From a virus, in the IMG/VR virus record IMGVR_UViG_3300021960_000060, positions 4,070 to 68,069 of that record: a DNA stretch of 64,000 nt; one strand, 5' to 3'. Positions within the stretch are counted from its first letter, which is position 1; each line of letters opens with the position of its first letter. The position numbers and the translations under genes are program-made. Below the pieces are notes generated by a model, which saw nothing but the letters and a program-made list of their open reading frames with translations, did not search any database and was not told where the DNA came from. Below, piece by piece: positions 2,378 to 64,000 of this stretch.

Positions 2378-3226
2378 TCAACCTATCATGTCTAATGGTG
2401 GAAGTTCATAAGTATTTGACATTTTTTCCATTATAGCATCTATCTCCTTTTGAGCATCATCGTATATTTGTCTACCATTCAGTTCAATTCCCCCTGGAAG
2501 TTTAACTCCTTGAAACTTAATTAAATTTTGTCCCCATTGACGTTTAATTAAAGAAGTCAAATATAGTTTTAGGAAAGAATCATTCCAAACTCTCTCGTAA
2601 TCATTTGGATTTAAAGATCTAAAACAATCGATAACAATATGGTTTCCTGCAGATACACTTCCCCAATCAATGTCTAGGTATAGTCTATCCATCCTCTGAT
2701 TGAATCTAATAGCCTTATCAGTTGTTAATAGAAAATTAATATCTTCGAGGTATGTTTTTGTCATTGCATATGTCAACATTTCTGTTGAACCCCACGAATA
2801 AATATCATTTAAAAACATTTGATATTTTACACTGAACATATTGTTTGTTGCAGTGTTACTTCCATCAAAATTATATATTTTTGTTATTCCTATAATGTCA
2901 GGTGGAATTTGTAAAAAATTACTACTTTCACTAAAATTAAAAGTAGTAGAAACTCCAGCAATTGATGTGGTAGCAGTAGTAATTGCTATTCCTGCAGCTG
3001 GTGATTCTCCACCAGGTGCTCTTCCTCTTTCAATATCCTGTTCAGTAATTTCATATTTTAAATATACTTGAGATACTCCATCAAAGTGTCTCTCTTGAAA
3101 GTACTGTATAGCATCATCAACCAAATCATCAATCTGTTCATCAGCAACATTAATTTCTAAAACTGGCGCCCCCAGTTTTCTTTTGCAATAATCAATCAAT
3201 TCCGGTCTATTAGTTGGTTGCGCCAT
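2378..3226 (-). CDS. gp13: Neck protein gp13
   Basis: LIDYCKRKLGAPVLEINV...QWGQNLIKFQGVKLPGGIELNG motifs of T4 gp13. Confidence 0.95.
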   Translation of the reverse strand: MAQPTNRPELIDYCKRKLGAPVLEINVADEQIDDLVDDAIQYFQERHFDGVSQVYLKYEITEQDIERGRAPGGESPAAGIAITTATTSIAGVSTTFNFSESSNFLQIPPDIIGITKIYNFDGSNTATNNMFSVKYQMFLNDIYSWGSTEMLTYAMTKTYLEDINFLLTTDKAIRFNQRMDRLYLDIDWGSVSAGNHIVIDCFRSLNPNDYERVWNDSFLKLYLTSLIKRQWGQNLIKFQGVKLPGGIELNGRQIYDDAQKEIDAIMEKMSNTYELPPLDMIG

Positions 3227-28306: not shown

Positions 28307-29076
28307 TAGATGACACGAGTCTTTTCATGACCCACACGAATTCTTGGATCACACCAAATATCATACCCTGCTTCAATAGCATCTAAACAGAATGATACAT
28401 CCTCTCCACACATATCTTGTACAGCACCAGATTCAAATACTTGCATCTTTGGTGCAAACCATGGATACTCTAAATTCTCAAAGACTCCCTTCTTAATCAA
28501 TACCCATCCAAAACCTGTGTAATCAACAGTGAATGGTTTCTTTCTTTTCTGAATGGAATCAACAGTTTCGTGATTCATTACTCCACCATTCTTCCTGAAA
28601 TCATCCTCCTCTAACCAGTGTGCAACAGAGGTGGTTCTTCCATCCTCAGTGGCATACCATCCACCAACTACTTCCTTCTCATTGCCTTCGGCATCTAATG
28701 CAAGATCACATAATTGCCAAAACTTCTGTGTGTCAAAGACAATATCACTGTCAATCCACAGTTGATAATCATACTCTAATTTACCATCCCATGGAATTTG
28801 CTTTGGTCCCCTTAATACATTCGCACCTAATACCTTACATCGTGCAAAGTTAACCATTGATGAATAATCTTGACTGATCTGAATACTCATCCCATTTTGT
28901 ACAAGATCAAAGCACAGTTGTACAAAGTTCTTTAGAAATGTAAATGAACATCCCCTACCAGGAAGACAAAATACAATCCTCTTTCCTTTCATTCTTTCTT
29001 TGATTGCATCAATGTCCCATTCAGGTTCTTGTCCCTTCTTTGGTGGTGCAGCTTTAACAGTAAATCCTTTTGCCAT
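28306..29076 (-). CDS. GT-A fold glycosyltransferase-like protein
   Basis: WIDSD (DxD), TGFGWVLIK and GEDVSFC motifs. Confidence 0.75.
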   Translation of the reverse strand: MAKGFTVKAAPPKKGQEPEWDIDAIKERMKGKRIVFCLPGRGCSFTFLKNFVQLCFDLVQNGMSIQISQDYSSMVNFARCKVLGANVLRGPKQIPWDGKLEYDYQLWIDSDIVFDTQKFWQLCDLALDAEGNEKEVVGGWYATEDGRTTSVAHWLEEDDFRKNGGVMNHETVDSIQKRKKPFTVDYTGFGWVLIKKGVFENLEYPWFAPKMQVFESGAVQDMCGEDVSFCLDAIEAGYDIWCDPRIRVGHEKTRVI

Positions 29077-29124
29077 TTGATTAATTAGGTTTCAGTTCAA
29101 TTCTATCAGTGTATGTATAGTATG

Positions 29125-29322
29125 TCAATAAGAATGCTCTTCTGACATATGTTGGGTTATTTCTACTTCCTCATACGTTAAATCCTCAAAAGTATAATCA
29201 GTCTCCATAAGACCAACCATCCCTTTGAGGGTATTCCATACTTTATTAAATTGTCTCTGACTTAAATTATAATATAAACATTCCTTCTTTGCATATATGT
29301 GATAAACCTTTGTAGGTGTCAT
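29125..29322 (-). CDS. Hypothetical protein
   Basis: 65-aa ORF, YHIYAK...LKGMVGLM. Confidence 0.65.
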   Translation of the reverse strand: MTPTKVYHIYAKKECLYYNLSQRQFNKVWNTLKGMVGLMETDYTFEDLTYEEVEITQHMSEEHSY

Positions 29323-29351
29323 TTTATCTCCGGTAATTTTTTTTGTCTTTT

Positions 29352-29501
29352 CTATTGTATAATCGCATTATATATCAGTGCTATCAAAATCCCTAGGGGG
29401 ACTAATACAATTTTACCCATTGTCTTTGGATACCTGATTATCCAGCCTGCGAAAATAACCTTCCAGAAATTCCAATATGGTGCGCGTTTTTTTATCTTCA
29501 A
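29352..29501 (-). CDS. 49-aa membrane peptide
   Basis: TTG start: (M)KIKKRAPYWNFWKVIFAGWIIRYPKTMGKIVLVPLGILIALIYNAIIQ; late promoter TATAAATA at 29541-29548. Confidence 0.55.
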   Translation of the reverse strand: MKIKKRAPYWNFWKVIFAGWIIRYPKTMGKIVLVPLGILIALIYNAIIQ

Positions 29502-29632
29502 AGGATTAATTATATTCTCGGAAAATTTTTTTGGTTTCGATATTTATAGATCGATTTGTCACCTCTGTAGGTTAGGGTAGTATGCGATTTTTATATACAC
29601 AACGCCCCCCATAAAACACTGCTGTTAAATGT

Positions 29633-29661
29633 ATAATAGCACGAAGGTTAACTGTTGTCAA
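29633..29661 (-). promoter_or_regulatory. sigma70-type promoter
   Basis: TTGACA-17 nt-TATTAT. Confidence 0.65.
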
Positions 29662-29685
29662 CCCCCATGCTACTAAGTATCACAT

Positions 29686-29820
29686 TCAGAACAGAATCTC
29701 TGCAATCTCATTCACATCTTGCTCACTGGCAATATCAGCAGCAATAACATCTAGGATCGATAAGATATCGTTGCCAGTGTTACCAACCTTGAGCATACCA
29801 AGTGCAGTTTCAAGAGACAT
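29686..29820 (-). CDS. 44-aa acidic peptide A (paralog of 30792-30884)
   Basis: Missed by the ORF track: MSLETALGMLKVGNTGNDILSILDVIAADIASEQDVNEIAEILF; shares GNDILxILxxI and leader elements with peptide B. Confidence 0.75.
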   Translation of the reverse strand: MSLETALGMLKVGNTGNDILSILDVIAADIASEQDVNEIAEILF

Positions 29821-29848
29821 AATAAAGAAGAAAAGTGTTAGTTAGTGA

Positions 29849-29876
29849 TGGTGAGTTTAATGACATCACCAGGTCA
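29849..29876 (-). ncRNA. Compact H-type pseudoknot in the leader of peptide A
   Basis: UGAC-C-UGGUGA-U-GUCA-UUAAAC-UCACCA: S1 UGAC/GUCA, S2 UGGUGA/UCACCA. Confidence 0.65.
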
Positions 29877-29892
29877 AAGTAGTCGCGCTAGA

Positions 29893-30108
29893 TCAATACT
29901 GGTCGCTGCGACGACCTGACAGACAGCAGCGATATTGTGTGTCTGTTGCTTGTAACTTAGTGCGTCTCTTATTACCTTGAAGACGAACACCAAACAATGA
30001 CCTTTTAGGTCCTCTTTGAGGATTTAAACGTGTCACCTTAACATCGCCACGAATTTCTGCGATGAGCAGATCTAACGGAGTTGATGCTGCAATGTCAGAA
30101 ATAGTCAT
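29893..30108 (-). CDS. 71-aa basic early protein
   Basis: ORF directly downstream of repeat-promoter copy 1. Confidence 0.65.
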   Translation of the reverse strand: MTISDIAASTPLDLLIAEIRGDVKVTRLNPQRGPKRSLFGVRLQGNKRRTKLQATDTQYRCCLSGRRSDQY

Positions 30109-30135
30109 GGGGTGAATCGTTCTCTCACTACTAGT

Positions 30136-30154
30136 ACGCTTTAGAGGTGAGTAA
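30136..30154 (-). promoter_or_regulatory. Repeated promoter-like element, copy 1 (consensus TTACTCACCTYTAAASTGT)
   Basis: TTACTCACCTCTAAAGCGT; one of 8 copies, all intergenic and upstream of minus-strand genes. Confidence 0.8.
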
Positions 30155-30171
30155 TATTATTCTTACACAGA

Positions 30172-30348
30172 TTACCAACGATCAGGATTACTTAGATCCT
30201 CTACGTAGCTGTCAATCACCTTCTCAGATCCTTCTAATGTGAATAACTCTTCCCAGTTAATCTGATGCGGATCAAAATCATTCATAACCTCTAAATCCAA
30301 CGTGATGCGATAACGTTGTTTCTGTGCCTGACTGATAGCGACTGACAT
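30172..30348 (-). CDS. 58-aa acidic early protein
   Basis: Missed by the ORF track: MSVAISQAQKQRYRITLDLEVMNDFDPHQINWEELFTLEGSEKVIDSYVEDLSNPDRW; has its own sigma70 promoter. Confidence 0.75.
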   Translation of the reverse strand: MSVAISQAQKQRYRITLDLEVMNDFDPHQINWEELFTLEGSEKVIDSYVEDLSNPDRW

Positions 30349-30377
30349 GATTGGTGTCCTGTGGTGATGACTTTACT

Positions 30378-30406
30378 ACTATAGAATGCCTGAGGAATAT
30401 TGTCAA
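30378..30406 (-). promoter_or_regulatory. sigma70 promoter, predicted TSS about 30371
   Basis: TTGACA-17 nt-TATAGT; a late TATAAATA also lies at 30419-30426. Confidence 0.75.
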
Positions 30407-30481
30407 TCTTCTAAGGGTTATTTATAAAAAAGTCTTATATTTTACAAATGTCAAGTCCCGGAAATACTTATGACCGATCGG

Positions 30482-30510
30482 TTGACATTTCTGCGCGTGT
30501 GTGATAGAGT
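30482..30510 (+). promoter_or_regulatory. Divergent sigma70 promoter facing a non-coding region
   Basis: TTGACA-17 nt-TAGAGT; the longest ATG ORF seen downstream before 30760 is about 15 codons. Confidence 0.6.
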
Positions 30511-30527
30511 GCTCGCTTAGATAACAA

Positions 30528-30611
30528 CAACTAGAGACATTTAATTAATGATCTAAATGATCAACTAGAGACATTTAAATCATCACAAGTACAAGACTCA
30601 GAGACATCAAA
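30528..30611 (+). repeat. Three direct repeats at a 33-34 bp period (CAACTAGAGACATTTAA x2 plus one degenerate copy)
   Basis: Exact 17-mers at 30528-30544 and 30562-30578; GACTCAGAGACATCAAA at 30595-30611. Confidence 0.85.
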
Positions 30612-30736
30612 ACCACTCAATATGAGAGTAATGGATACTATCCTGAGAACGTTCTCAATAATAGTATAAAAAAGCAAAGTATATTTATAATACCATTTAA
30701 AAACGTTTTTTAATGAATAAGTGTATTAATTGATAC

Positions 30737-30761
30737 AAAAAAGAGAGGAATGACCCTCTCT
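30737..30761 (-). terminator. Rho-independent terminator downstream of peptide B
   Basis: AGAGAGG-GTCATT-CCTCTCT followed by a T-run on the minus strand. Confidence 0.75.
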
Positions 30762-30791
30762 ATGTCTTATTCAGTTATATGGACTAAGTGA

Positions 30792-30884
30792 TCAATAGAG
30801 GGCCTCAATTGCTTCAAGGATGAGAAGAATATCATTACCATTCTGTGCAGATTCAAGAGCAAGGAAGAGATCAGAATTAGACAT
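30792..30884 (-). CDS. 30-aa acidic peptide B (paralog of 29686-29820)
   Basis: Missed by the ORF track: MSNSDLFLALESAQNGNDILLILEAIEALY; followed by a terminator. Confidence 0.7.
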   Translation of the reverse strand: MSNSDLFLALESAQNGNDILLILEAIEALY

Positions 30885-30911
30885 TTAAAAGTGTTAGTTA
30901 GTGGGTGTATT

Positions 30912-30939
30912 CGGTGGGTTTAGAGTCATCACCAGGACT
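30912..30939 (-). ncRNA. Compact H-type pseudoknot in the leader of peptide B
   Basis: AGUC-C-UGGUGA-U-GACU-CUAAAC-CCACCG; S1 covaries with copy 1 (UGAC/GUCA to AGUC/GACU). Confidence 0.65.
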
Positions 30940-30946
30940 ATAGGAT

Positions 30947-31024
30947 CTAGAGTATAATTAAGATCAAAACGATTGAATAGAAACGAGCATAGATTGATGC
31001 CCACTCTTTCTTAGTCTTAACCAT
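30947..31024 (-). CDS. 25-aa putative membrane micropeptide
   Basis: MVKTKKEWASIYARFYSIVLILIIL; start overlaps the stop of the upstream ORF. Confidence 0.45.
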   Translation of the reverse strand: MVKTKKEWASIYARFYSIVLILIIL

Positions 31025-31371
31025 CATGAGAAGATATAACCATTAGTGAATGTTTCGTTCTTGTATACATTCTTTCCATTAATTGCACCAACGAAGAGTC
31101 TTACATACCATTGAAAGTTCTTCTGAAATACTCCTTCTCCTCTCTCACAGAACTCAGAACAGAGTGCATTAAGTCTGGATTTAGTTGTATTAGACTGATA
31201 ACCACCATCATAGATTGTCATCGAATCATCAGAAACTTCTGCAATCTTGTTACCATGAAGACGAACGATTGAGATTCCTGTCTCTTCATTAAAGTGAACT
31301 GTTGTATTAGCATTAGACCAGTTTTGATTTGACTGGATTGCTTGGCACATTTGGGATTCGATTTTACGCAT
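31024..31371 (-). CDS. Conserved cyanophage early hypothetical protein
   Basis: MRKIESQM...LHGNKIA...DGGYQSNTTKSRLNAL...VFQKNFQWY. Confidence 0.8.
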   Translation of the reverse strand: MRKIESQMCQAIQSNQNWSNANTTVHFNEETGISIVRLHGNKIAEVSDDSMTIYDGGYQSNTTKSRLNALCSEFCERGEGVFQKNFQWYVRLFVGAINGKNVYKNETFTNGYIFS

Positions 31372-31413
31372 GAGTTGTGAAGAGTTGATGTTAATGAAGA
31401 GTGTAGTTTTTAC

Positions 31414-31614
31414 TTAACCATGAAATCCTAACTCCTCCCAATCCCATTTTACTCCATTTGGTGAACATTCAGGAAGGTTCATAGATTTACAATAGTTAAC
31501 TGCTGCTTCTTGAGTTGAGAAGATTTTAGCAGCACTATTGCCTCTTAACATAATTGTTTCACGAATGCTGTCAGAGTTAGTGAAGAAAGGGAAAGTGATA
31601 AAAGCAGAAGTCAT
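31414..31614 (-). CDS. Hypothetical early protein
   Basis: Follows repeat-promoter copy 2. Confidence 0.65.
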   Translation of the reverse strand: MTSAFITFPFFTNSDSIRETIMLRGNSAAKIFSTQEAAVNYCKSMNLPECSPNGVKWDWEELGFHG

Positions 31615-32380: not shown

Positions 32381-32450
32381 GTGTTAATTATTGCAGATTT
32401 GAGGGTGGATTGCAACCGGTCTTGTGCCGGTTCTCCAACTGGTTTTCTGA

Positions 32451-33169: not shown

Positions 33170-33173
33170 GATG

Positions 33174-33353
33174 TTAGTTAGTGACGTAAGTTTGTGCGAT
33201 TGCATCAGTCTTAAACTTTCTGCATAGTTTAAACAGCAGTTTTAAATCATCCTTAATCACATATCGAAACGAAGATGATTCGATGACAAAGTTACCATCT
33301 TCCAACCATACTTGTGGGAGTTGTTTCTTGTAGATTGGGAAATCAGTTGGCAT
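33174..33353 (-). CDS. 59-aa hypothetical protein
   Basis: MPTDFPIYKKQLPQVWLEDGNFVIESSSFRYVIKDDLKLLFKLCRKFKTDAIAQTYVTN; fills the gap between neighbours. Confidence 0.65.
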   Translation of the reverse strand: MPTDFPIYKKQLPQVWLEDGNFVIESSSFRYVIKDDLKLLFKLCRKFKTDAIAQTYVTN

Positions 33354-34438: not shown

Positions 34439-34466
34439 GATGTTAGATAGTGAGGTGAATGTTGGA

Positions 34467-60806: not shown

Positions 60807-63275
60807 TTAGACTCGTTTTAACATTTGTGTTGTGCTGGTGCCCATGGAAAAATCTGTCCATGCGTAATCAGAATCAGCAGCACCCCATTGTGTTCCTGGA
60901 ACTTGAACAGGTGATGAACGATATATTATATCATTTATTCCATTCTCACCATAATCATTTCTTCCCCAATTCCACAGTGTTCCATCAGTCTTCATACATG
61001 CTGCATGATACCAACCATTAGCTTGTGGTTTAGTCCATTGTGTTCCTGGAACTTGAGTTGGAGAGTTGCGGTTTGAACGATCATTTAGTCCTAGTGGTCC
61101 ATTACTATTATACCCCCACGTCCATAATGTTCCATCAGTTTTGGTTACCATCATACCAAAAAGTCCACCAGAAAGTTCATTCCATTGTGTTCCTGGAACT
61201 TGTCTTGGTGATGAATATACTACAGTATTGCCTTGACCTAGGTTTCCTTGAGTATTATATCCCCATGTCCATAATGTTCCATCAGTTTTGAGTGCTAATC
61301 CAGATTCATTAAATTCGGGAATTTTACTCCATTGTGTTCCTGGAATTTGAACTGGTGATGAACGAGGTATGTTATCATTTTGAGCTAATCTACCATCTTG
61401 TGCTTGCCCACCCAACGCCCATAGTGTTCCATCTGTTTTAAGTGCAAAAATTGTGTTAAGTCCACCACCAATAGCATCTTTTGTTTGAGCCCACTGTGTT
61501 CCTGGAATTTGAATTGGTGATGAATGATCTACTCTATCATTTAGACCCAATTGACCATAAAAATTATACCCCCAAACCCACATTGTCCCATCAGTTTTAG
61601 TTCCTGCAGATTGATAATTTGGAGTTCCACAAACAAAAGACCATTGTGTTCCTGGAATTTGAATTGGTGATGAACGATTTACCCTATCATTAAGACCCAA
61701 TTGACCCTGCTCCCCCTGACCCCATGCCCAGAAGGTATTATCTGTTTTTAATGCAAAAACACAATATGATGCACTTACAGAACTCCACTGTGTTCCTGGA
61801 ATTTGAATTGGTGATGAACGACCTACTGTATCATTAATGCCATTTGTACCAGTGGGATTACGACCTAAGGTCCACAGTTCATGACCAACAAGTGCTGGTC
61901 CAGAAGCACCAGCAGTCTCAAAATAATAACTTGAGATACCAACACTATCACTGGTTCCAAACGAATCTTGAATTGCATTTTCAGGGAATATTACATAATA
62001 ACTTGTACCAGCAATACCAAGATCAGTTGCAGGATTAATTGTTAAAGTTGCATTACTGATAGAAACTGTCGTGCCTATTCCAGCAGTGGCAATATCAAAT
62101 CTTTCTGATACATTATCCTGAACAATAATTTGTCCGATCATTGCAGCATGGTTGCCGCATTGATAATAATATGTTCCTGGTGTGACTCCAAATGTATCCC
62201 AGGTTGTGGTTGCTGTTCCCTCTCCTGTTAGTGTACCTTGACTTACACTTGCACCACCATCACTGACTCTGATATACAGTGGGTGAGCACCTGATACTGT
62301 GTTATTGAATACAATTGTATCTCCTACTTTAACAGTAATCGCAGGATCAGTTCCTGATACACTTCCATCACGATCATTACCAGCAACAGTATAGTTTGAA
62401 CTATCTGCTGCAGTAAGTGTTTGATTATATGTTAATTCTGCTGTTTGAATCGTAACAATACCAACGTTTGCTGCAATTGGTTTCTGATATGTTAAAACAA
62501 TATTTGTTGTCGCAGCAATACCTGTTGCACCAATACCGGGACTATAGATTAAAGGTTCTAATAATCCACCAATATTTGTTAATCCTGAACCATCCCCACT
62601 AAATGATACTGCGGTAATAATTCCTGTTGTATTGACACTTCCTTCAGTTCCTATACCAATCGGTGGCAAATTAGTTAAACCAGATCCATCTCCACTTAAT
62701 GATCCTGCAGTAATAATACCGGTAGTAACAATACTGTCAGATGCAATTGTTGATGCTGTTCCTATAGTAACTCTATTAGTAACACCATTTACTACAATAC
62801 TACTAGTTCCAATGGTTGCAATACCACTAATCGTTATATTTCCTGCACTATCCCATACGGGAGCACCTGTAGATAGATTATAATAATTTACAGATCCAGC
62901 ATCAACAGAACTTAGTAATACTTTTCCACCAAATGATAATCCATAAAAAGTCAATCCACCATCTGGAGGTGTTGTAAATGTAATATTGCTTCCAGATACG
63001 GTATAGTCAGTTCCTGCGCTTTGTACAACGCCACCAATACTAATAATGACCTGAGTAGCACTTACTGGAGTAATAGGATAACTTCCAGAAGTTAATGCAA
63101 AGGTTGTATCAGATCCATTAAAAGAACCTTCTATATTATCAAGTTCTTTTATATTCTTTGGATTCTGAGTATTAAAATTAATCCAAACAGTGCCATTCCA
63201 TTGATATACATTACCTGTCGATGCATCAACATGAATTTGGTTTACATTTGGACTTCCAGGGAATGATAGCGCCAT
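60807..63275 (-). CDS. Tail-associated adhesin: Ig-like and cupredoxin-like domains plus an RCC1/BLIP-II beta-propeller
   Basis: Seven KTDGTxWxWG...SSPxQxPGTQW repeats; HPL...YYYQCGNHAAM. Confidence 0.8.
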   Translation of the reverse strand: MALSFPGSPNVNQIHVDASTGNVYQWNGTVWINFNTQNPKNIKELDNIEGSFNGSDTTFALTSGSYPITPVSATQVIISIGGVVQSAGTDYTVSGSNITFTTPPDGGLTFYGLSFGGKVLLSSVDAGSVNYYNLSTGAPVWDSAGNITISGIATIGTSSIVVNGVTNRVTIGTASTIASDSIVTTGIITAGSLSGDGSGLTNLPPIGIGTEGSVNTTGIITAVSFSGDGSGLTNIGGLLEPLIYSPGIGATGIAATTNIVLTYQKPIAANVGIVTIQTAELTYNQTLTAADSSNYTVAGNDRDGSVSGTDPAITVKVGDTIVFNNTVSGAHPLYIRVSDGGASVSQGTLTGEGTATTTWDTFGVTPGTYYYQCGNHAAMIGQIIVQDNVSERFDIATAGIGTTVSISNATLTINPATDLGIAGTSYYVIFPENAIQDSFGTSDSVGISSYYFETAGASGPALVGHELWTLGRNPTGTNGINDTVGRSSPIQIPGTQWSSVSASYCVFALKTDNTFWAWGQGEQGQLGLNDRVNRSSPIQIPGTQWSFVCGTPNYQSAGTKTDGTMWVWGYNFYGQLGLNDRVDHSSPIQIPGTQWAQTKDAIGGGLNTIFALKTDGTLWALGGQAQDGRLAQNDNIPRSSPVQIPGTQWSKIPEFNESGLALKTDGTLWTWGYNTQGNLGQGNTVVYSSPRQVPGTQWNELSGGLFGMMVTKTDGTLWTWGYNSNGPLGLNDRSNRNSPTQVPGTQWTKPQANGWYHAACMKTDGTLWNWGRNDYGENGINDIIYRSSPVQVPGTQWGAADSDYAWTDFSMGTSTTQMLKRV

Positions 63276-63298
63276 TATGCCTACACTTTTTTAGTTAT

Positions 63299-64000
63299 TT
63301 ATGATACCTCTTTTACAAGGGTTAGTCCATCATTTGAAAGATTTCCATGAATCCATTGTGTTCCTGGAAGTTGAACTGGTGATGAGTAATTAGCTACAGT
63401 AGGATCATTTTGACCTAATGACCCGTTACTATTAAGTCCCCATACCCATACTGTATCATCAGTTTTAATTGCCAACGTTGTATATGTAACAGTATCAATA
63501 TAAGACCATGTTCCTGGCATTTGAATTGGTGATGAATAATTTACTACACTATTTTGACCCAATTGCCCGTTATTATTTTGTCCCCACAACCATAGTGATC
63601 CATCAGTTTTAATTGCTCCACTATGATATGATGCACTCATACTTTCCCATTCTGTTCCTGGAACCAACGCTGGTGATGAACGAGATATTGATGGACCATT
63701 TTGAGCATGACTACCACCAAAGTTATATCCCCACATCCATAATGTTCCATCAGTTTTAATTCCTCCAGAAACATAATTAGTGTTGTTAAAGAATGACCAT
63801 GGTCCCGGAATTTGAATTGGTGATGAATAATTTATTCTATTATTTTGACCATGTTCTCCAAATTGACCATAACCCCATACCCACAATGATCCATCAGTTT
63901 TAAACCCATAAGCACCATTTCTAGCTGGTGATTTTTTAACACGTGTCCATTGTGTTCCTGGAAGTTGAGTTGGTGATGAACGAGATATAGCATCATTTAA
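63299..64000 (-). CDS. RCC1/BLIP-II repeat protein (5' part outside the window)
   Basis: Frame is open to the window edge; same KTDG/WG/SSPxQxPG repeats. Confidence 0.85.
   Translation of the reverse strand, partial: LNDAISRSSPTQLPGTQWTRVKKSPARNGAYGFKTDGSLWVWGYGQFGEHGQNNRINYSSPIQIPGPWSFFNNTNYVSGGIKTDGTLWMWGYNFGGSHAQNGPSISRSSPALVPGTEWESMSASYHSGAIKTDGSLWLWGQNNNGQLGQNSVVNYSSPIQMPGTWSYIDTVTYTTLAIKTDDTVWVWGLNSNGSLGQNDPTVANYSSPVQLPGTQWIHGNLSNDGLTLVKEVS

What the first reader, a model, noticed from the sequence alone, without database searches (positions are those of the whole stretch)
29686..30939. Candidate RNA-controlled micropeptide module: two paralogous peptides, twin pseudoknots and two antisense inputs
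Seen in the sequence: (1) two unannotated acidic peptides (44 aa, 29686-29820; 30 aa, 30792-30884) sharing GNDILxILxxI; (2) each preceded by the same 28-nt pseudoknot and a CACTAACTAACAC box; (3) between them, an mRNA whose predicted 5' end is complementary to the pseudoknot; (4) a divergent non-coding transcript whose repeats are complementary to the peptides' start codons. Inference: a self-contained post-transcriptional switch, such as a type I TA-like or timing circuit for host-takeover peptides. I recognise no described phage system with this layout.
Basis: partly seen in the sequence, partly recalled or inferred. Interest (0 to 1): 0.88.

Follow-up and report, generated by a model that had tools for sequence, protein, structure and literature searches.

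The report
Pseudoknot leader before cyanophage micropeptide genes
Two small acidic peptide genes of a marine cyanophage each sit behind the same tiny, evolutionarily conserved RNA pseudoknot, which looks like a new leader element for controlling their expression, while the proposed antisense RNA controls do not hold up in related phages.

Summary
The window is a T4-like cyanomyophage fragment. Both peptide ORFs are real, conserved phage genes: 29686-29820 (44 aa) and 30792-30884 (30 aa), both minus strand.

It is an H-type fold with a 4-bp and a 5-bp stem. Two alignments support it: 20 and 24 distinct sequences, 98% and 97% of cells paired, compensatory changes in 7 and 6 of 9 pairs, 0 of 500 shuffles as good.

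It occurs only in front of this peptide family and has no Rfam match. A nearly G-free spacer of 25-28 nt (16 of 19 leaders) links it to a start codon without a Shine-Dalgarno sequence.

- The p58-leader complementarity is strong here (-24 kcal/mol), but significant in only 6 of 15 cognate pairs, with no compensatory change.
- The repeat/start-codon complementarity is no better than shuffled controls in 15 of 15 tests.

Best reading: a duplicated cis-acting leader cassette, closest in layout to the T4 gene 32 operator. It is not a type I toxin-antitoxin-like circuit. Its mechanism is untested.

The parts
31024..31371 (-). Upstream gene, Kyanoviridae Gp96-like protein (115 aa). It was used as the synteny anchor.
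   Evidence: Pfam PF23790, E 5.9e-51. 108 relatives were confirmed in IMG/VR and 80 were kept.
30912..30939 (-). Pseudoknot copy 2 (28 nt). Stem 1 pairs 30936-30939 with 30924-30927. Stem 2 pairs 30930-30934 with 30912-30916. Loop 1 is one C, the junction is 2 nt, and loop 3 is 7 nt and A-rich.
   Evidence: Covariance model R1 scores 47.5 bits, E 2e-10. Covariation is shown in A3 and A6.
30885..30911 (-). 27-nt G-free spacer between pseudoknot 2 and the pep2 start codon. It contains the 13-nt box at 30891-30903. No Shine-Dalgarno-like purine run is present.
   Evidence: One search lists a G-free run at 30883-30911.
30792..30884 (-). pep2, a 30-aa acidic micropeptide of the 30-aa class.
   Evidence: 16 unique nucleotide versions, all of 30 codons. 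Variable columns by codon position are 19, 13 and 27.
30742..30761 (-). Intrinsic terminator hairpin after pep2 (8 bp plus a T run).
   Evidence: In the intergenic alignment A7 a hairpin followed by a T run is present at this place in relatives, with different stem sequences (read by eye).
30524..30607 (.). Three 17-nt direct repeats with a period of 33-34 nt. The copy number varies between strains.
   Evidence: family D1. One search shows a 21-nt insertion behind 30527 in one contig each of runs X1 and X3, and a 34-nt skip from 30527 to 30562 in an X8 contig.
30482..30510 (+). Conserved sigma-70-like promoter pointing against the genes: the -35 hexamer, a 17-nt spacer, then the -10 hexamer preceded by TG. 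It is the source of the putative non-coding plus-strand RNA.
   Evidence: In A7, read by eye, the -35 hexamer is exact in 13 of 14 loci, the -10 is conserved, and the spacer varies in sequence at near-constant length (one 1-nt insertion). No transcript was observed.
30378..30406 (-). Sigma-70-like promoter of the p58 gene (11 of 12 consensus positions).
   Evidence: The -35 hexamer is invariant in 14 of 14 loci of A7.
30362..30375 (-). Stretch of the p58 leader that is complementary to both pseudoknots.
   Evidence: I5 13 of 14, I6 12 of 14. One search gives -24.2 and -14.6 kcal/mol. It is not conserved outside one subclade.
30172..30348 (-). p58, a 58-aa acidic protein of unknown function.
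   Evidence: phrog_12516, E 4e-29. Syntenic in many loci.
29893..30108 (-). p71, a 71-aa basic protein (pI 10.6), rare among relatives. Its stop codon lies 16 nt before pseudoknot 1.
   Evidence: No Pfam or PHROG family.
29849..29876 (-). Pseudoknot copy 1 (28 nt), with the same architecture as copy 2.
   Evidence: R1 scores 42.5 bits, E 5e-9. Covariation.
29821..29848 (-). 28-nt G-free spacer with the 13-nt box at 29835-29847.
   Evidence: One search lists a G-free run at 29819-29863.
29686..29820 (-). pep1, a 44-aa acidic micropeptide of the long class.
   Evidence: Annotated homologues in Bellamy, S-SCSM1, S-CREM1, S-H38 and weaker ones. 26 clusters. 40 representative clusters at E<=1e-3. 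The AF2 model is a helix-turn-helix hairpin, pLDDT 85.

Best explanation
The locus holds two copies of one conserved cyanomyophage expression cassette. In the order it is read on the minus strand, the cassette is:
- a compact 28-nt H-type pseudoknot;
- a 25-28-nt spacer almost free of G, and therefore unstructured, carrying short TAAC-type repeats;
- a start codon without a Shine-Dalgarno sequence;
- a 30-52-aa acidic helical-hairpin peptide;
- usually a terminator.

The pseudoknot is an RNA element of the sense mRNA. It belongs to this gene family alone and acts in cis.

Most likely mechanism (inferred, not shown): the pseudoknot is a stable 5' boundary for a single-stranded ribosome landing site inside a polycistronic early mRNA. 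It would set how well the micropeptide is translated, and possibly protect the processed 5' end, independently of the upstream gene.

The layout is that of the T4 gene 32 leader: a pseudoknot, then an unstructured A/U-rich repeat region, then the start codon.

The second copy arose by the cassette shuffling typical of T4-type hyperplastic regions.
For: Shown:
- Covariation supports both stems in two alignments. A3 has 98.3% of 180 cells paired, 7 of 9 pairs with double changes, 0 of 500 shuffles as good, and slid controls of 23-59%. A6 has 97.2% of 215 cells paired. Stem 1 was not encoded in the search model, yet is 100% paired and shows UA, AU and CG at one pair.
- G-U pairs occur in the sense strand only.
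- The element is specific to this family. There are 2 hits in the window and in the 68-kb record. S-SM2, S-SCSM1 and S-H38 each have one strong hit, always before the peptide gene. It is found in 36 of 80 peptide loci, always just upstream on the gene strand. In 371 kb of syntenic loci there are 26 hits, all at peptide leaders or their remnants.
- The spacer is 25-28 nt in 16 of 19 leaders. It has no G in 15 of 19, counted by eye. Only 2 of 45 ordinary gene starts in the window have no G at -30..-1.
- Homologues that carry a plain conserved hairpin instead of the pseudoknot keep a 29-36-nt G-free spacer in 9 of 10. This points to 'structure plus open landing pad' as the constant design.
- The pseudoknot begins 5-17 nt after the stop of the upstream long ORF in 31 of 40 places. 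There is no room for a promoter, so it is an intercistronic element.
- The peptide genes show a coding signature.
- Cassettes are gained, lost and moved.

Layout of the T4 gene 32 operator: passages of Uzan and Miller 2010, PMC3014915.
Against: No expression data exist. The one RNA run covers almost none of the locus. Transcript ends, translation and any effect of the pseudoknot are therefore untested.

Nested-fold energies of the leaders are unremarkable (-4.6 kcal/mol, z -0.45; -8.3 kcal/mol, z -2.1). The program cannot score pseudoknots, so stability is not established.

The invariant unpaired bases (the loop-1 C, the junction A, and the AAAC of loop 3) and two never-varying G-C pairs of stem 1 would equally fit recognition by a protein or a small ligand.

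The strong complementarity to the p58 leader in this phage (0 of 300 shuffles as good) remains unexplained by this reading.

Sequences in each alignment are related. The shuffle control is therefore not a probability, and A6 was aligned to a model that contains stem 2.
Confidence: 0.5

Rival explanations
1. Translational operator for a trans-acting RNA-binding protein. A phage or host protein (gp32-like single-strand binder, RegA-like repressor or other) recognises the pseudoknot and spreads over, or blocks, the unstructured spacer. This would repress peptide synthesis at a set stage of infection.
For: The layout is the same as the T4 gene 32 operator: a pseudoknot 5' of an unstructured A/U-rich repeat region that reaches the start codon (passages). 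The loop bases are invariant while the stems covary, which is the usual signature of a protein-recognised hairpin or pseudoknot. The distance to the start codon is fixed.
Against: The model finds no such pseudoknot elsewhere in three complete genomes that carry it. The S-SM2 gene 32 leader is only 48 nt, and I saw no comparable pseudoknot in it by eye. So the phage's own gp32 is not obviously autoregulated this way. Homologues swap the pseudoknot for another hairpin and keep the spacer. No candidate binder was identified. The peptides themselves are acidic and are unlikely to bind RNA.
Confidence: 0.2
2. Minimal riboswitch. The 28-nt pseudoknot is an aptamer stabilised by a small metabolite. 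Its folding state changes 30S access to the landing site.
For: From recall, not from a call: the size and H-type topology with an A-rich third loop resemble the smallest known riboswitch aptamers (preQ1-I class). From calls: the stems are short (4 and 5 bp) and would be marginal without tertiary or ligand support, and 9 of 28 positions are invariant, including unpaired ones. Cyanophages carry other riboswitch-like motifs before small ORFs (passages in PMC9964418).
Against: No Rfam family matches even at E<=10. The pseudoknot does not overlap the start region, and no terminator follows it, so no expression platform is visible. Function seems replaceable by an unrelated hairpin. The regulated gene gives no hint of a metabolite.
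Confidence: 0.1
3. The p58 mRNA 5' end and a divergent repeat-bearing RNA pair with the pseudoknots and with the peptide start regions. Together they would form an antisense-controlled, type I toxin-antitoxin-like or timing switch.
For: In this phage the p58 leader pairs with pseudoknot 2 at -24.2 kcal/mol (z -6.5) and with pseudoknot 1 at -14.6 kcal/mol (z -2.9). The same holds in L009, L019 and L021, and more weakly in S-SCSM1. The plus-strand promoter is conserved in 14 loci. If its RNA read through the weak plus-strand side of the terminator, it would be fully antisense to pep2.
Against: Only 6 of 15 cognate pairs are significant, and all six share one stem-2 type. Loci with other stem-2 types show no compensating leader change (z -1.6 to +1.0). 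The leader motif persists where there is no pseudoknot, in L017, L020, L026 and L035. Repeat/start-region duplexes equal shuffled controls in 15 of 15 tests. The repeats vary in copy number by 21 and 34 nt among strains. The peptides are acidic and non-hydrophobic. Most genomes have one cassette.
Confidence: 0.07
4. Termination-coupled element. Because it sits a few nucleotides after the upstream stop codon, the pseudoknot acts on the terminating ribosome. It would promote read-through, pausing or re-initiation that couples peptide synthesis to translation of the upstream gene.
For: The pseudoknot starts 5-10 nt after the upstream stop in 19 of 40 places and 5-17 nt after it in 31 of 40. From recall: that is the geometry of recoding pseudoknots at the mRNA entry channel.
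Against: The upstream distance ranges from 5 to 84 nt, and is 84 nt for pep2 here, whereas the downstream distance is tight. I saw no conserved slippery sequence at the ends of the upstream genes (by eye). In S-SCSM1 the upstream stop codon and the peptide start are 67 nt apart, so they are not in frame. The box places stop codons in two frames.
Confidence: 0.08

Closest known systems
Translational operator of bacteriophage T4 gene 32 (5' pseudoknot plus an unstructured A/U-rich leader)
   Same: It is found in a T4-type phage. An H-type pseudoknot lies 5' of an unstructured leader with short UAA-type repeats that runs into the start codon. The mRNA is part of longer transcripts (passages of PMC3014915). 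From recall of the T2 NMR work: one-nucleotide first loop and about 7-nt last loop.
   Different: It is smaller (4+5 bp, 28 nt) and closer to the start (25-28 nt, against 67 nt upstream in T4). It has a 2-nt junction between the stems. It precedes an acidic micropeptide, not the single-strand-binding protein. It is absent from the gene 32 leader of S-SM2. No binding protein is known.
Pseudoknot riboswitch aptamers of minimal size (preQ1-I, Rfam RF00522)
   Same: About 30 nt, H-type topology, an A-rich third loop, and a position in a 5' leader. The comparison is from recall.
   Different: No Rfam hit at E<=10. No overlap with a ribosome-binding site and no terminator. The conserved bases are different. 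No ligand is implied by the gene context.
PeSL promoter/stem-loop cassettes of T4-type hyperplastic regions (Arbiol 2010; Comeau 2014, PMC4122927)
   Same: Repeated regulatory sequence flanks small ORFs of unknown function in a variable early region. It is associated with insertion, deletion and relocation of the ORFs (passages; here).
   Different: PeSLs are a terminator stem-loop plus an early promoter, repeated before many unrelated genes. This element has no promoter, is a pseudoknot, and accompanies one gene family only.
Downstream-peptide / glutamine-II riboswitch motif of marine cyanobacteria and cyanophages
   Same: A pseudoknotted leader before very short ORFs in the same ecological group (recall; cyanophage glnA-type motifs are mentioned in PMC9964418).
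   Different: No match to the Rfam models in the window. The size and sequence are different.

Membership tests
T4 gene 32-type autoregulatory operator | A pseudoknot lies 5' of an unstructured A/U-rich leader that reaches the ribosome-binding site. | tested here: met
   The pseudoknot is supported by covariation. A G-free spacer of 25-28 nt runs to the start codon.
T4 gene 32-type autoregulatory operator | The element sits in the leader of the gene for the protein that binds it (gene 32, autogenous control). | tested here: not met
   It precedes an acidic micropeptide. The model finds nothing at gene 32 in S-SM2, S-SCSM1 or S-H38. The S-SM2 gene 32 leader is 48 nt, and I saw no such element in it by eye.
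T4 gene 32-type autoregulatory operator | A single-strand-binding protein binds the RNA and represses translation. | not testable with these tools
   This needs gel shift, footprinting or reporter assays.
preQ1-I riboswitch (RF00522) and other Rfam pseudoknot riboswitches | A match to the family covariance model. | tested here: not met
   cmscan of 29000-31600 at E<=10 returns only a chance snoRNA hit. The whole window at gathering thresholds gives 0 matches.
preQ1-I riboswitch (RF00522) and other Rfam pseudoknot riboswitches | Ligand-dependent folding coupled to an expression platform (a sequestered ribosome-binding site or a terminator). | tested here: inconclusive
   No overlap with the start region and no terminator after the pseudoknot. 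Ligand binding cannot be tested here.
Type I toxin-antitoxin system | A small hydrophobic, membrane-active toxin peptide. | tested here: not met
   pep1 has 8 acidic and 1 basic residue, pep2 has 5 and 0. The longest uncharged run is 6 residues. The AF2 model is a soluble helical hairpin.
Type I toxin-antitoxin system | An antisense RNA whose pairing with the toxin mRNA is conserved. | tested here: not met
   Repeat RNA against the start region: 0 of 15 tests better than shuffles. p58 leader against the pseudoknot: 6 of 15, with no compensatory change.
PeSL (promoter-early stem-loop) cassette | A composite of a terminator stem-loop and a sigma-70 early promoter, repeated before many different ORFs. 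| tested here: not met
   No promoter fits between the upstream stop and the pseudoknot in 31 of 40 places. There is one strong copy per complete genome, always at this gene family. The intergenic region 30378-30761 does have a terminator plus promoters and is PeSL-like.
Recoding (frameshift or read-through) pseudoknot | A fixed short spacer (about 5-9 nt) after a slippery site or a leaky stop, and an extended reading frame. | tested here: inconclusive
   The spacer is 5-10 nt in 19 of 40 places but ranges up to 84 nt. I saw no conserved slippery site and no in-frame fusion.

The most novel reading that the evidence does not exclude
The 28-nt pseudoknot is a sensor rather than a passive structure. 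It would be either the smallest known class of riboswitch aptamer, or the operator of an unknown phage RNA-binding regulator. Either way it would gate synthesis of an acidic anti-host micropeptide according to the metabolic or replication state of the infected cyanobacterium. In the window's own lineage a second layer may have been added: the 5' end of the neighbouring p58 mRNA can unfold the pseudoknot by a 12-14-bp duplex. That would be an mRNA-mRNA switch between adjacent early genes.
Probability: 0.15. Interest if true: 0.85.

Novelty: new member of a known kind. Interest (0 to 1): 0.6.

Why it matters
Marine cyanomyophages are among the most abundant viruses of the ocean's main primary producers. 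Most of their small early genes, and nearly all their regulatory RNA, are uncharacterised.

This work yields a compact structured RNA supported by covariation. About 40 distinct versions were seen. It is tied to one micropeptide family and is absent from Rfam. It is small enough (28 nt) for direct structural and biochemical study.

It offers a tractable case of translation without a Shine-Dalgarno sequence in picocyanobacteria. According to the 2010 review read here, the only viral pseudoknot known in translational autoregulation was that of T4 gene 32. If this one is an operator, it would be a second example of pseudoknot-based translational control in a T4-type phage.

The peptide is confined to phages: 40 representative clusters among 1.84 billion proteins, and one hit among the 185,579 species genomes of genome contigs. 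That makes it a candidate host-takeover or anti-defence factor.

The work also shows that attractive short complementarities in A/T-rich phage DNA need comparative testing before a circuit is inferred.

Tried and rejected
- Replication-origin idea for the intergenic region (promoter, A/T-rich stretch, repeats). The cumulative GC skew shows no turning point near 30.5 kb and nothing else supports it, so I dropped it.
- Tandem Repeats Finder reports no array in 29000-31500. The three repeats were found only by the repeat finder.
- Mini-ORF reading of the repeats (minus-strand ORFs of 7-10 codons). The last unit keeps a start codon and 7 codons in many loci. However, its stop is lost in 5 of 14 loci of A7 (by eye). 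Strain indels of 21 and 34 nt do not respect a frame. Not pursued.
- RNA evidence. The only RNA run (X24, share 0.05) gave two contigs, 30302-30335 and 30951-31140, which say nothing about the peptides, the pseudoknots or the plus-strand RNA. All runs were contigs, so no ends or strands could be read.
- Peptide function. There are no Pfam or PHROG families at useful E-values. Foldseek against PDB gives no match at E<=0.001 (best 3.7), only generic helical hairpins. The ESM Atlas gives no usable hit.
- Two long proteins among the representative hits (P0048, P0064). P0048 carries repeated haemolysin-type calcium-binding-related domains; P0064 has no match with an individually significant domain stretch. 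I read both as low-complexity glycine/asparagine/aspartate similarity, not homology.
- gp32 link: see the rival explanation.
- An alternative hairpin in pep1 (a 6-bp variant using the bases after stem 2) is not conserved in pep2 or in relatives.
- Literature. Searches on 'cyanophage' with 'pseudoknot', and on cyanophage non-coding RNA, early promoter and transcriptome, with passages of PMC10690425 and PMC9964418, found no description of this motif.
- The search for related loci with alignment A1 failed for lack of a conserved stretch. I used the Gp96-like anchor and later alignment A4 instead.
Full report
**What the window is.** The window is part of a 68,069-nt IMG/VR virus record that CheckV estimates as 32% complete. 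Its nearest named relatives are T4-like cyanomyophages of the Kyanoviridae: Bellamy, S-SM2, SynMITS9220M01 and S-SCSM1, at 70-75% nucleotide identity over parts of the region. Around the finding all genes run on the minus strand.

The local order, read in the gene direction, is:
- a Gp96-like gene (31024-31371; Pfam PF23790, E 6e-51);
- pep2;
- a 440-nt intergenic region;
- p58 (phrog_12516);
- p71;
- pep1;
- then p65 and p256.

The same synteny, with one or other element missing, recurs in 80 IMG/VR loci fetched with the Gp96-like protein.

**The peptides (claim 1).**
- pep1 has annotated 'hypothetical protein' homologues in Bellamy, S-SCSM1, S-CREM1 and S-H38, with weaker ones in two more phages.
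- It has 26 clusters in the 5.8-billion-protein set.
- Only 40 representative clusters reach E<=1e-3 among 1.84 billion proteins.
- The single hit in genome contigs (one genome for each of 185,579 species) is an 18.9-kb contig of a MAG labelled Woesearchaeota. I take that contig to be a mis-binned phage contig.

pep2 has no tblastn hit in the phage records. A motif scan of the syntenic loci found a 30-aa class with 16 unique nucleotide versions. All are exactly 30 codons long. Variable columns by codon position number 19, 13 and 27, and pairwise codon differences are 863 synonymous against 928 non-synonymous. That is a coding signature.

The family is acidic. pep1 has 8 acidic and 1 basic residue, pep2 has 5 and 0, and neither has an uncharged run longer than 6 residues. 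AlphaFold2 predicts helix 3-12, a turn, then helix 16-43, with mean pLDDT 85. No Pfam, PHROG, PDB-fold or Atlas relative was found. Many long-class members end in an acidic stretch closed by an aromatic residue. From memory this recalls the C-terminal tails of single-strand-binding proteins. That is a lead only.

**The pseudoknot (claim 2).** I collected leader sequences with a pattern that fixed only loop letters and did not require any pairing. This gave 20 distinct 39-nt sequences.
- Columns 8-12 pair with columns 26-30 (stem 2). Columns 3-6 pair with columns 15-18 (stem 1). The stems interleave, so the fold is an H-type pseudoknot of 28 nt.
- Loop 1 is one invariant C. The junction is 2 nt and begins with an invariant A. 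Loop 3 is 7 nt and contains an invariant AAAC.
- On this alignment 98.3% of 180 cells are standard pairs, and 7 of 9 pairs show changes on both sides (46 cells).
- None of 500 shuffles reaches the observed pairing or covariation score. Sliding the partners by 1-3 columns drops pairing to 23-59%.

A second, largely independent set came from 80 loci found through the peptide alignment. A covariance model that encoded stem 2 only matched 36 of the 80, always on the gene strand just before the peptide start.
- The 24 distinct sequences give 97.2% pairing.
- Stem 1, which the model did not know, is 100% paired. One of its pairs shows UA, AU and CG, and another shows AU and UA.
- Stem 2 appears in at least eight complementary versions.
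- G-U pairs are frequent. They would be mismatches on the other strand, so the structure belongs to the sense RNA.

Nested-fold energies alone are unimpressive. The case rests on covariation.

**Leader anatomy.**
- From the 3' end of the pseudoknot to the start codon there are 25-28 nt in 16 of 19 distinct leaders.
- By eye on that output, 15 of the 19 spacers contain no G at all.
- Among 45 ordinary minus-strand ORFs of the window the mean is 4.6 G in the 30 nt before the start, and only 2 have none.
- There is no purine-rich Shine-Dalgarno element.

Near-copies precede other small ORFs at 32381-32393, 33171-33183 and 34440-34452. The box is therefore a more general start-region feature of this phage's small early genes. 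It also places stop codons in two frames.

Upstream, the pseudoknot begins 5-17 nt after the stop codon of the preceding long ORF in 31 of 40 places. One further place had no upstream sequence, and many places are near-duplicates. So the pseudoknot is an intercistronic element with no room for its own promoter.

Homologues without the pseudoknot carry another conserved hairpin. One pair of its closing stem alternates G-C (5 sequences) with A-U (4 sequences). That hairpin is again followed by a G-free spacer of 29-36 nt in 9 of 10. In several loci both structures stand in tandem. The constant design is thus a stable structure followed by an open stretch of roughly 27-36 nt and then the start codon.

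**Specificity and novelty.** The model finds exactly two strong matches in the window, at 47.5 and 42.5 bits. The next best scores 14 bits. It finds the same two matches in the whole 68-kb record. In the complete genomes of S-SM2, S-SCSM1 and S-H38 there is one strong match each (45-48 bits), always before the peptide gene. Everything else is below 15 bits. Bellamy and SynMITS9220M01 have none.

In 371 kb of syntenic loci all 26 matches lie at peptide leaders or their remnants. Rfam 15 has no matching family: the region at E<=10 gave only a chance snoRNA hit, and the window at gathering scores gave nothing. Two literature searches and the passages read found no description. The supplements of the 10,000-candidate survey (PMC10690425) could not be opened.

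**Claim 3, the p58 leader.** In the window the 14 nt at 30362-30375 are 13 of 14 and 12 of 14 complementary to the two pseudoknots. The predicted duplexes are -24.2 and -14.6 kcal/mol. Shuffled leaders average -8.2 kcal/mol, and 0 of 300 and 3 of 300 shuffles do as well. The duplex would cover the 5' arm of stem 2, the junction and the 3' arm of stem 1, so it would unfold the pseudoknot.

Across relatives the picture is poor.
- Of 15 cognate pairs, 6 are significant: both window copies, L009, L019, L021 and S-SCSM1. All six carry the same stem-2 version.
- The other 9 are L015, L028, L034, L036, S-SM2, L140, L158, L165 and L128. They include five other stem-2 versions and have z from -1.6 to +1.0.
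- The p58 leader motif is kept unchanged in loci that have no pseudoknot at all: L017, L020, L026 and L035.

There is no compensatory change, so the pairing is at best a lineage-specific addition. I cannot exclude that it is real in this lineage.

**Claim 4, the divergent RNA.** A promoter-like site on the plus strand (30482-30510) scores 10 of 12 with an extended -10. Such sites are not enriched in the region (10 found, 9.7 expected).

Its conservation is what counts. In the 14-locus intergenic alignment, read by eye, the -35 hexamer is exact in 13, the -10 is conserved, and the 17-nt spacer varies in sequence at near-constant length (one 1-nt insertion). That is the pattern of a real promoter. 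No plus-strand ORF of 20 codons or more follows it before 30790.

The three repeats lie just downstream. Their complement shares 11 nt with the pep2 start region and 8 nt with that of pep1. In relatives the longest shared word is 10 nt in three loci, 8 nt in one, and 7 nt or fewer in the other nine. Duplex energies equal those of shuffled start regions in all 15 tests (z -1.4 to +1.9; lowest fraction 0.115).

In metagenome contigs the repeat block gains 21 nt (runs X1, X3) or loses 34 nt (run X8). That is the behaviour of a slippage-prone non-coding repeat. In most relatives another triple repeat occupies the neighbouring stretch, where the window has a 12-nt palindrome at 30645-30656.

The intergenic region as a whole holds, in the gene direction:
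- a terminator;
- an A/T-rich block;
- the repeats;
- the plus-strand promoter, pointing against the genes;
- an invariant 7-mer within the 8-mer at 30419-30426, which matches what I recall as the T4 late-promoter consensus;
- the p58 promoter.

It is a conserved control region whose plus-strand product remains hypothetical.

**Cassette dynamics.** Only the window and near-identical contigs (L008/L103, L104) carry both cassettes. Other phages have the peptide either after the Gp96-like gene or before p65. One metagenomic protein is a read-through fusion of two tandem copies (P0037).

L009 is otherwise 95-100% identical in the flanking proteins. At the pep1 position it keeps a decayed pseudoknot of a different stem-2 type (25.6 bits), fused directly to the sequence that follows the pep1 stop in the window. 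The spacer and the gene have been deleted.

This gain, loss and exchange of a small ORF together with its regulatory sequence is what has been described for the hyperplastic regions of T4-type phages (PeSL cassettes; passages of PMC4122927). The present element, however, is neither a promoter nor shared among unrelated genes.

**Mechanism.**

Shown:
- a conserved sense-strand pseudoknot;
- a fixed distance to a start codon without a Shine-Dalgarno sequence;
- a G-free spacer;
- an intercistronic position;
- exclusive association with one peptide family.

Inferred: the element acts in cis on translation initiation and/or mRNA stability of the peptide cistron.

I favour a structural role, with a probability of about 0.45-0.5 for the whole statement. 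The pseudoknot, or in other phages the alternative hairpin, would delimit and keep open a single-stranded landing site for the 30S subunit within a polycistronic early transcript. It might also protect a processed 5' end. The T4 gene 32 mRNA is an example of the latter: it is cut just 5' of its pseudoknot and is unusually stable (passages). From memory, ribosomal protein S1 selects pseudoknots in vitro, and the rpsA leader, which lacks a Shine-Dalgarno sequence, works through structure plus A/U-rich single strands. Both fit this reading, but I did not check either here.

Rivals:
- a protein-bound operator (0.2);
- a minimal riboswitch (0.1);
- a termination-coupled element (0.08);

The invariant unpaired bases and the two never-varying G-C pairs of stem 1 can be read as tertiary contacts of a self-contained fold or as a recognition surface. 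The data cannot tell these apart.

**Verdict.** The interpretation as a two-input antisense switch or a toxin-antitoxin-like module is not supported.

What remains is an apparently undescribed small structured RNA family that is the dedicated leader of a phage-only micropeptide family. It is a new member of the known class of pseudoknot leaders. Interest is moderate to high, because the element is short, well supported by covariation and directly testable.

Noticed in passing
L017:3073-3155, L018, L020, L022, L035, L067, L072, L084, L026, L001:2346-2428(-) (alignment A5): A second conserved leader hairpin precedes peptide homologues. In its 5-bp closing stem one pair alternates G-C (5 sequences) with A-U (4 sequences), and its 3' side is highly conserved. 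It occurs alone, or upstream of the pseudoknot (L009, L019, L021, L036). It is followed by a 29-36-nt G-free spacer in 9 of 10.
   Followed up: partly
L006, L011, L050, L082 (leaders listed): A third recurrent leader module, a short palindromic element containing a -10-like hexamer, precedes peptide homologues that lack the pseudoknot. A related stretch follows p58 in the window near 30110-30165.
   Followed up: no
window 30524-30607 and runs X1, X3, X8: The 33-34-nt repeat block is polymorphic in natural populations. A 21-nt repeat-derived insertion lies behind 30527 in contigs of two runs, and a 34-nt deletion (30527 to 30562) is seen in a third.
   Followed up: partly
window 30645-30656; relatives in alignment A7 columns about 170-240: Most relatives have three copies of a roughly 10-nt repeat about 21-22 nt apart in the intergenic region. 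The window, L021 and Bellamy have instead a 12-nt perfect palindrome next to a small hairpin. These are two alternative modules at one place, and they may be protein-binding sites.
   Followed up: no
L009:3074-3112 and 3030-3130: A close relative keeps a decayed pseudoknot of another stem-2 type at the pep1 position. The spacer and the peptide gene have been deleted cleanly, so the second cassette is dispensable.
   Followed up: yes
L028:1761-1799: A second pseudoknot-like sequence (38 bits) lies directly after the peptide gene of L028. Its stem 2 is broken and no ORF follows it. It may be the remnant of a tandem second cassette.
   Followed up: no
window 29352-29501(-); L009:3277-3444: A conserved small hydrophobic ORF (49 aa here, 55 aa in L009) lies downstream of pep1, behind the promoter-like site 29661..29633. 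Unlike the acidic peptides, it looks like a membrane peptide.
   Followed up: no
window 29893-30108(-): p71 is a strongly basic 71-aa protein (pI 10.6) with no family. It is rare among relatives (WIN, L008, L009, L103, L104, weakly L068 and L145). It lies next to the acidic peptide in two different gene orders. It may be an acid-base partner, but this was not tested.
   Followed up: no
window 32381-32393, 33171-33183, 34440-34452 (all minus strand): Near-copies of the 13-nt box sit directly before other small ORF starts. At 33171-33183 the box contains the stop codon of the preceding ORF. The box seems to be a general junction or start-region motif of this phage's small early genes.
   Followed up: partly
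L187 (PBPJ01000002.1, 1-1741): The only 'cellular' genome hit for the peptide is an 18.9-kb contig of a MAG labelled Candidatus Woesearchaeota. It is probably a cyanophage contig binned by mistake.
   Followed up: no
window 61200-63980 (+ strand): About a dozen copies of a conserved roughly 25-nt word recur at about 150-nt intervals (seen in the output). This suggests a repeat-domain protein gene on the minus strand.
   Followed up: no
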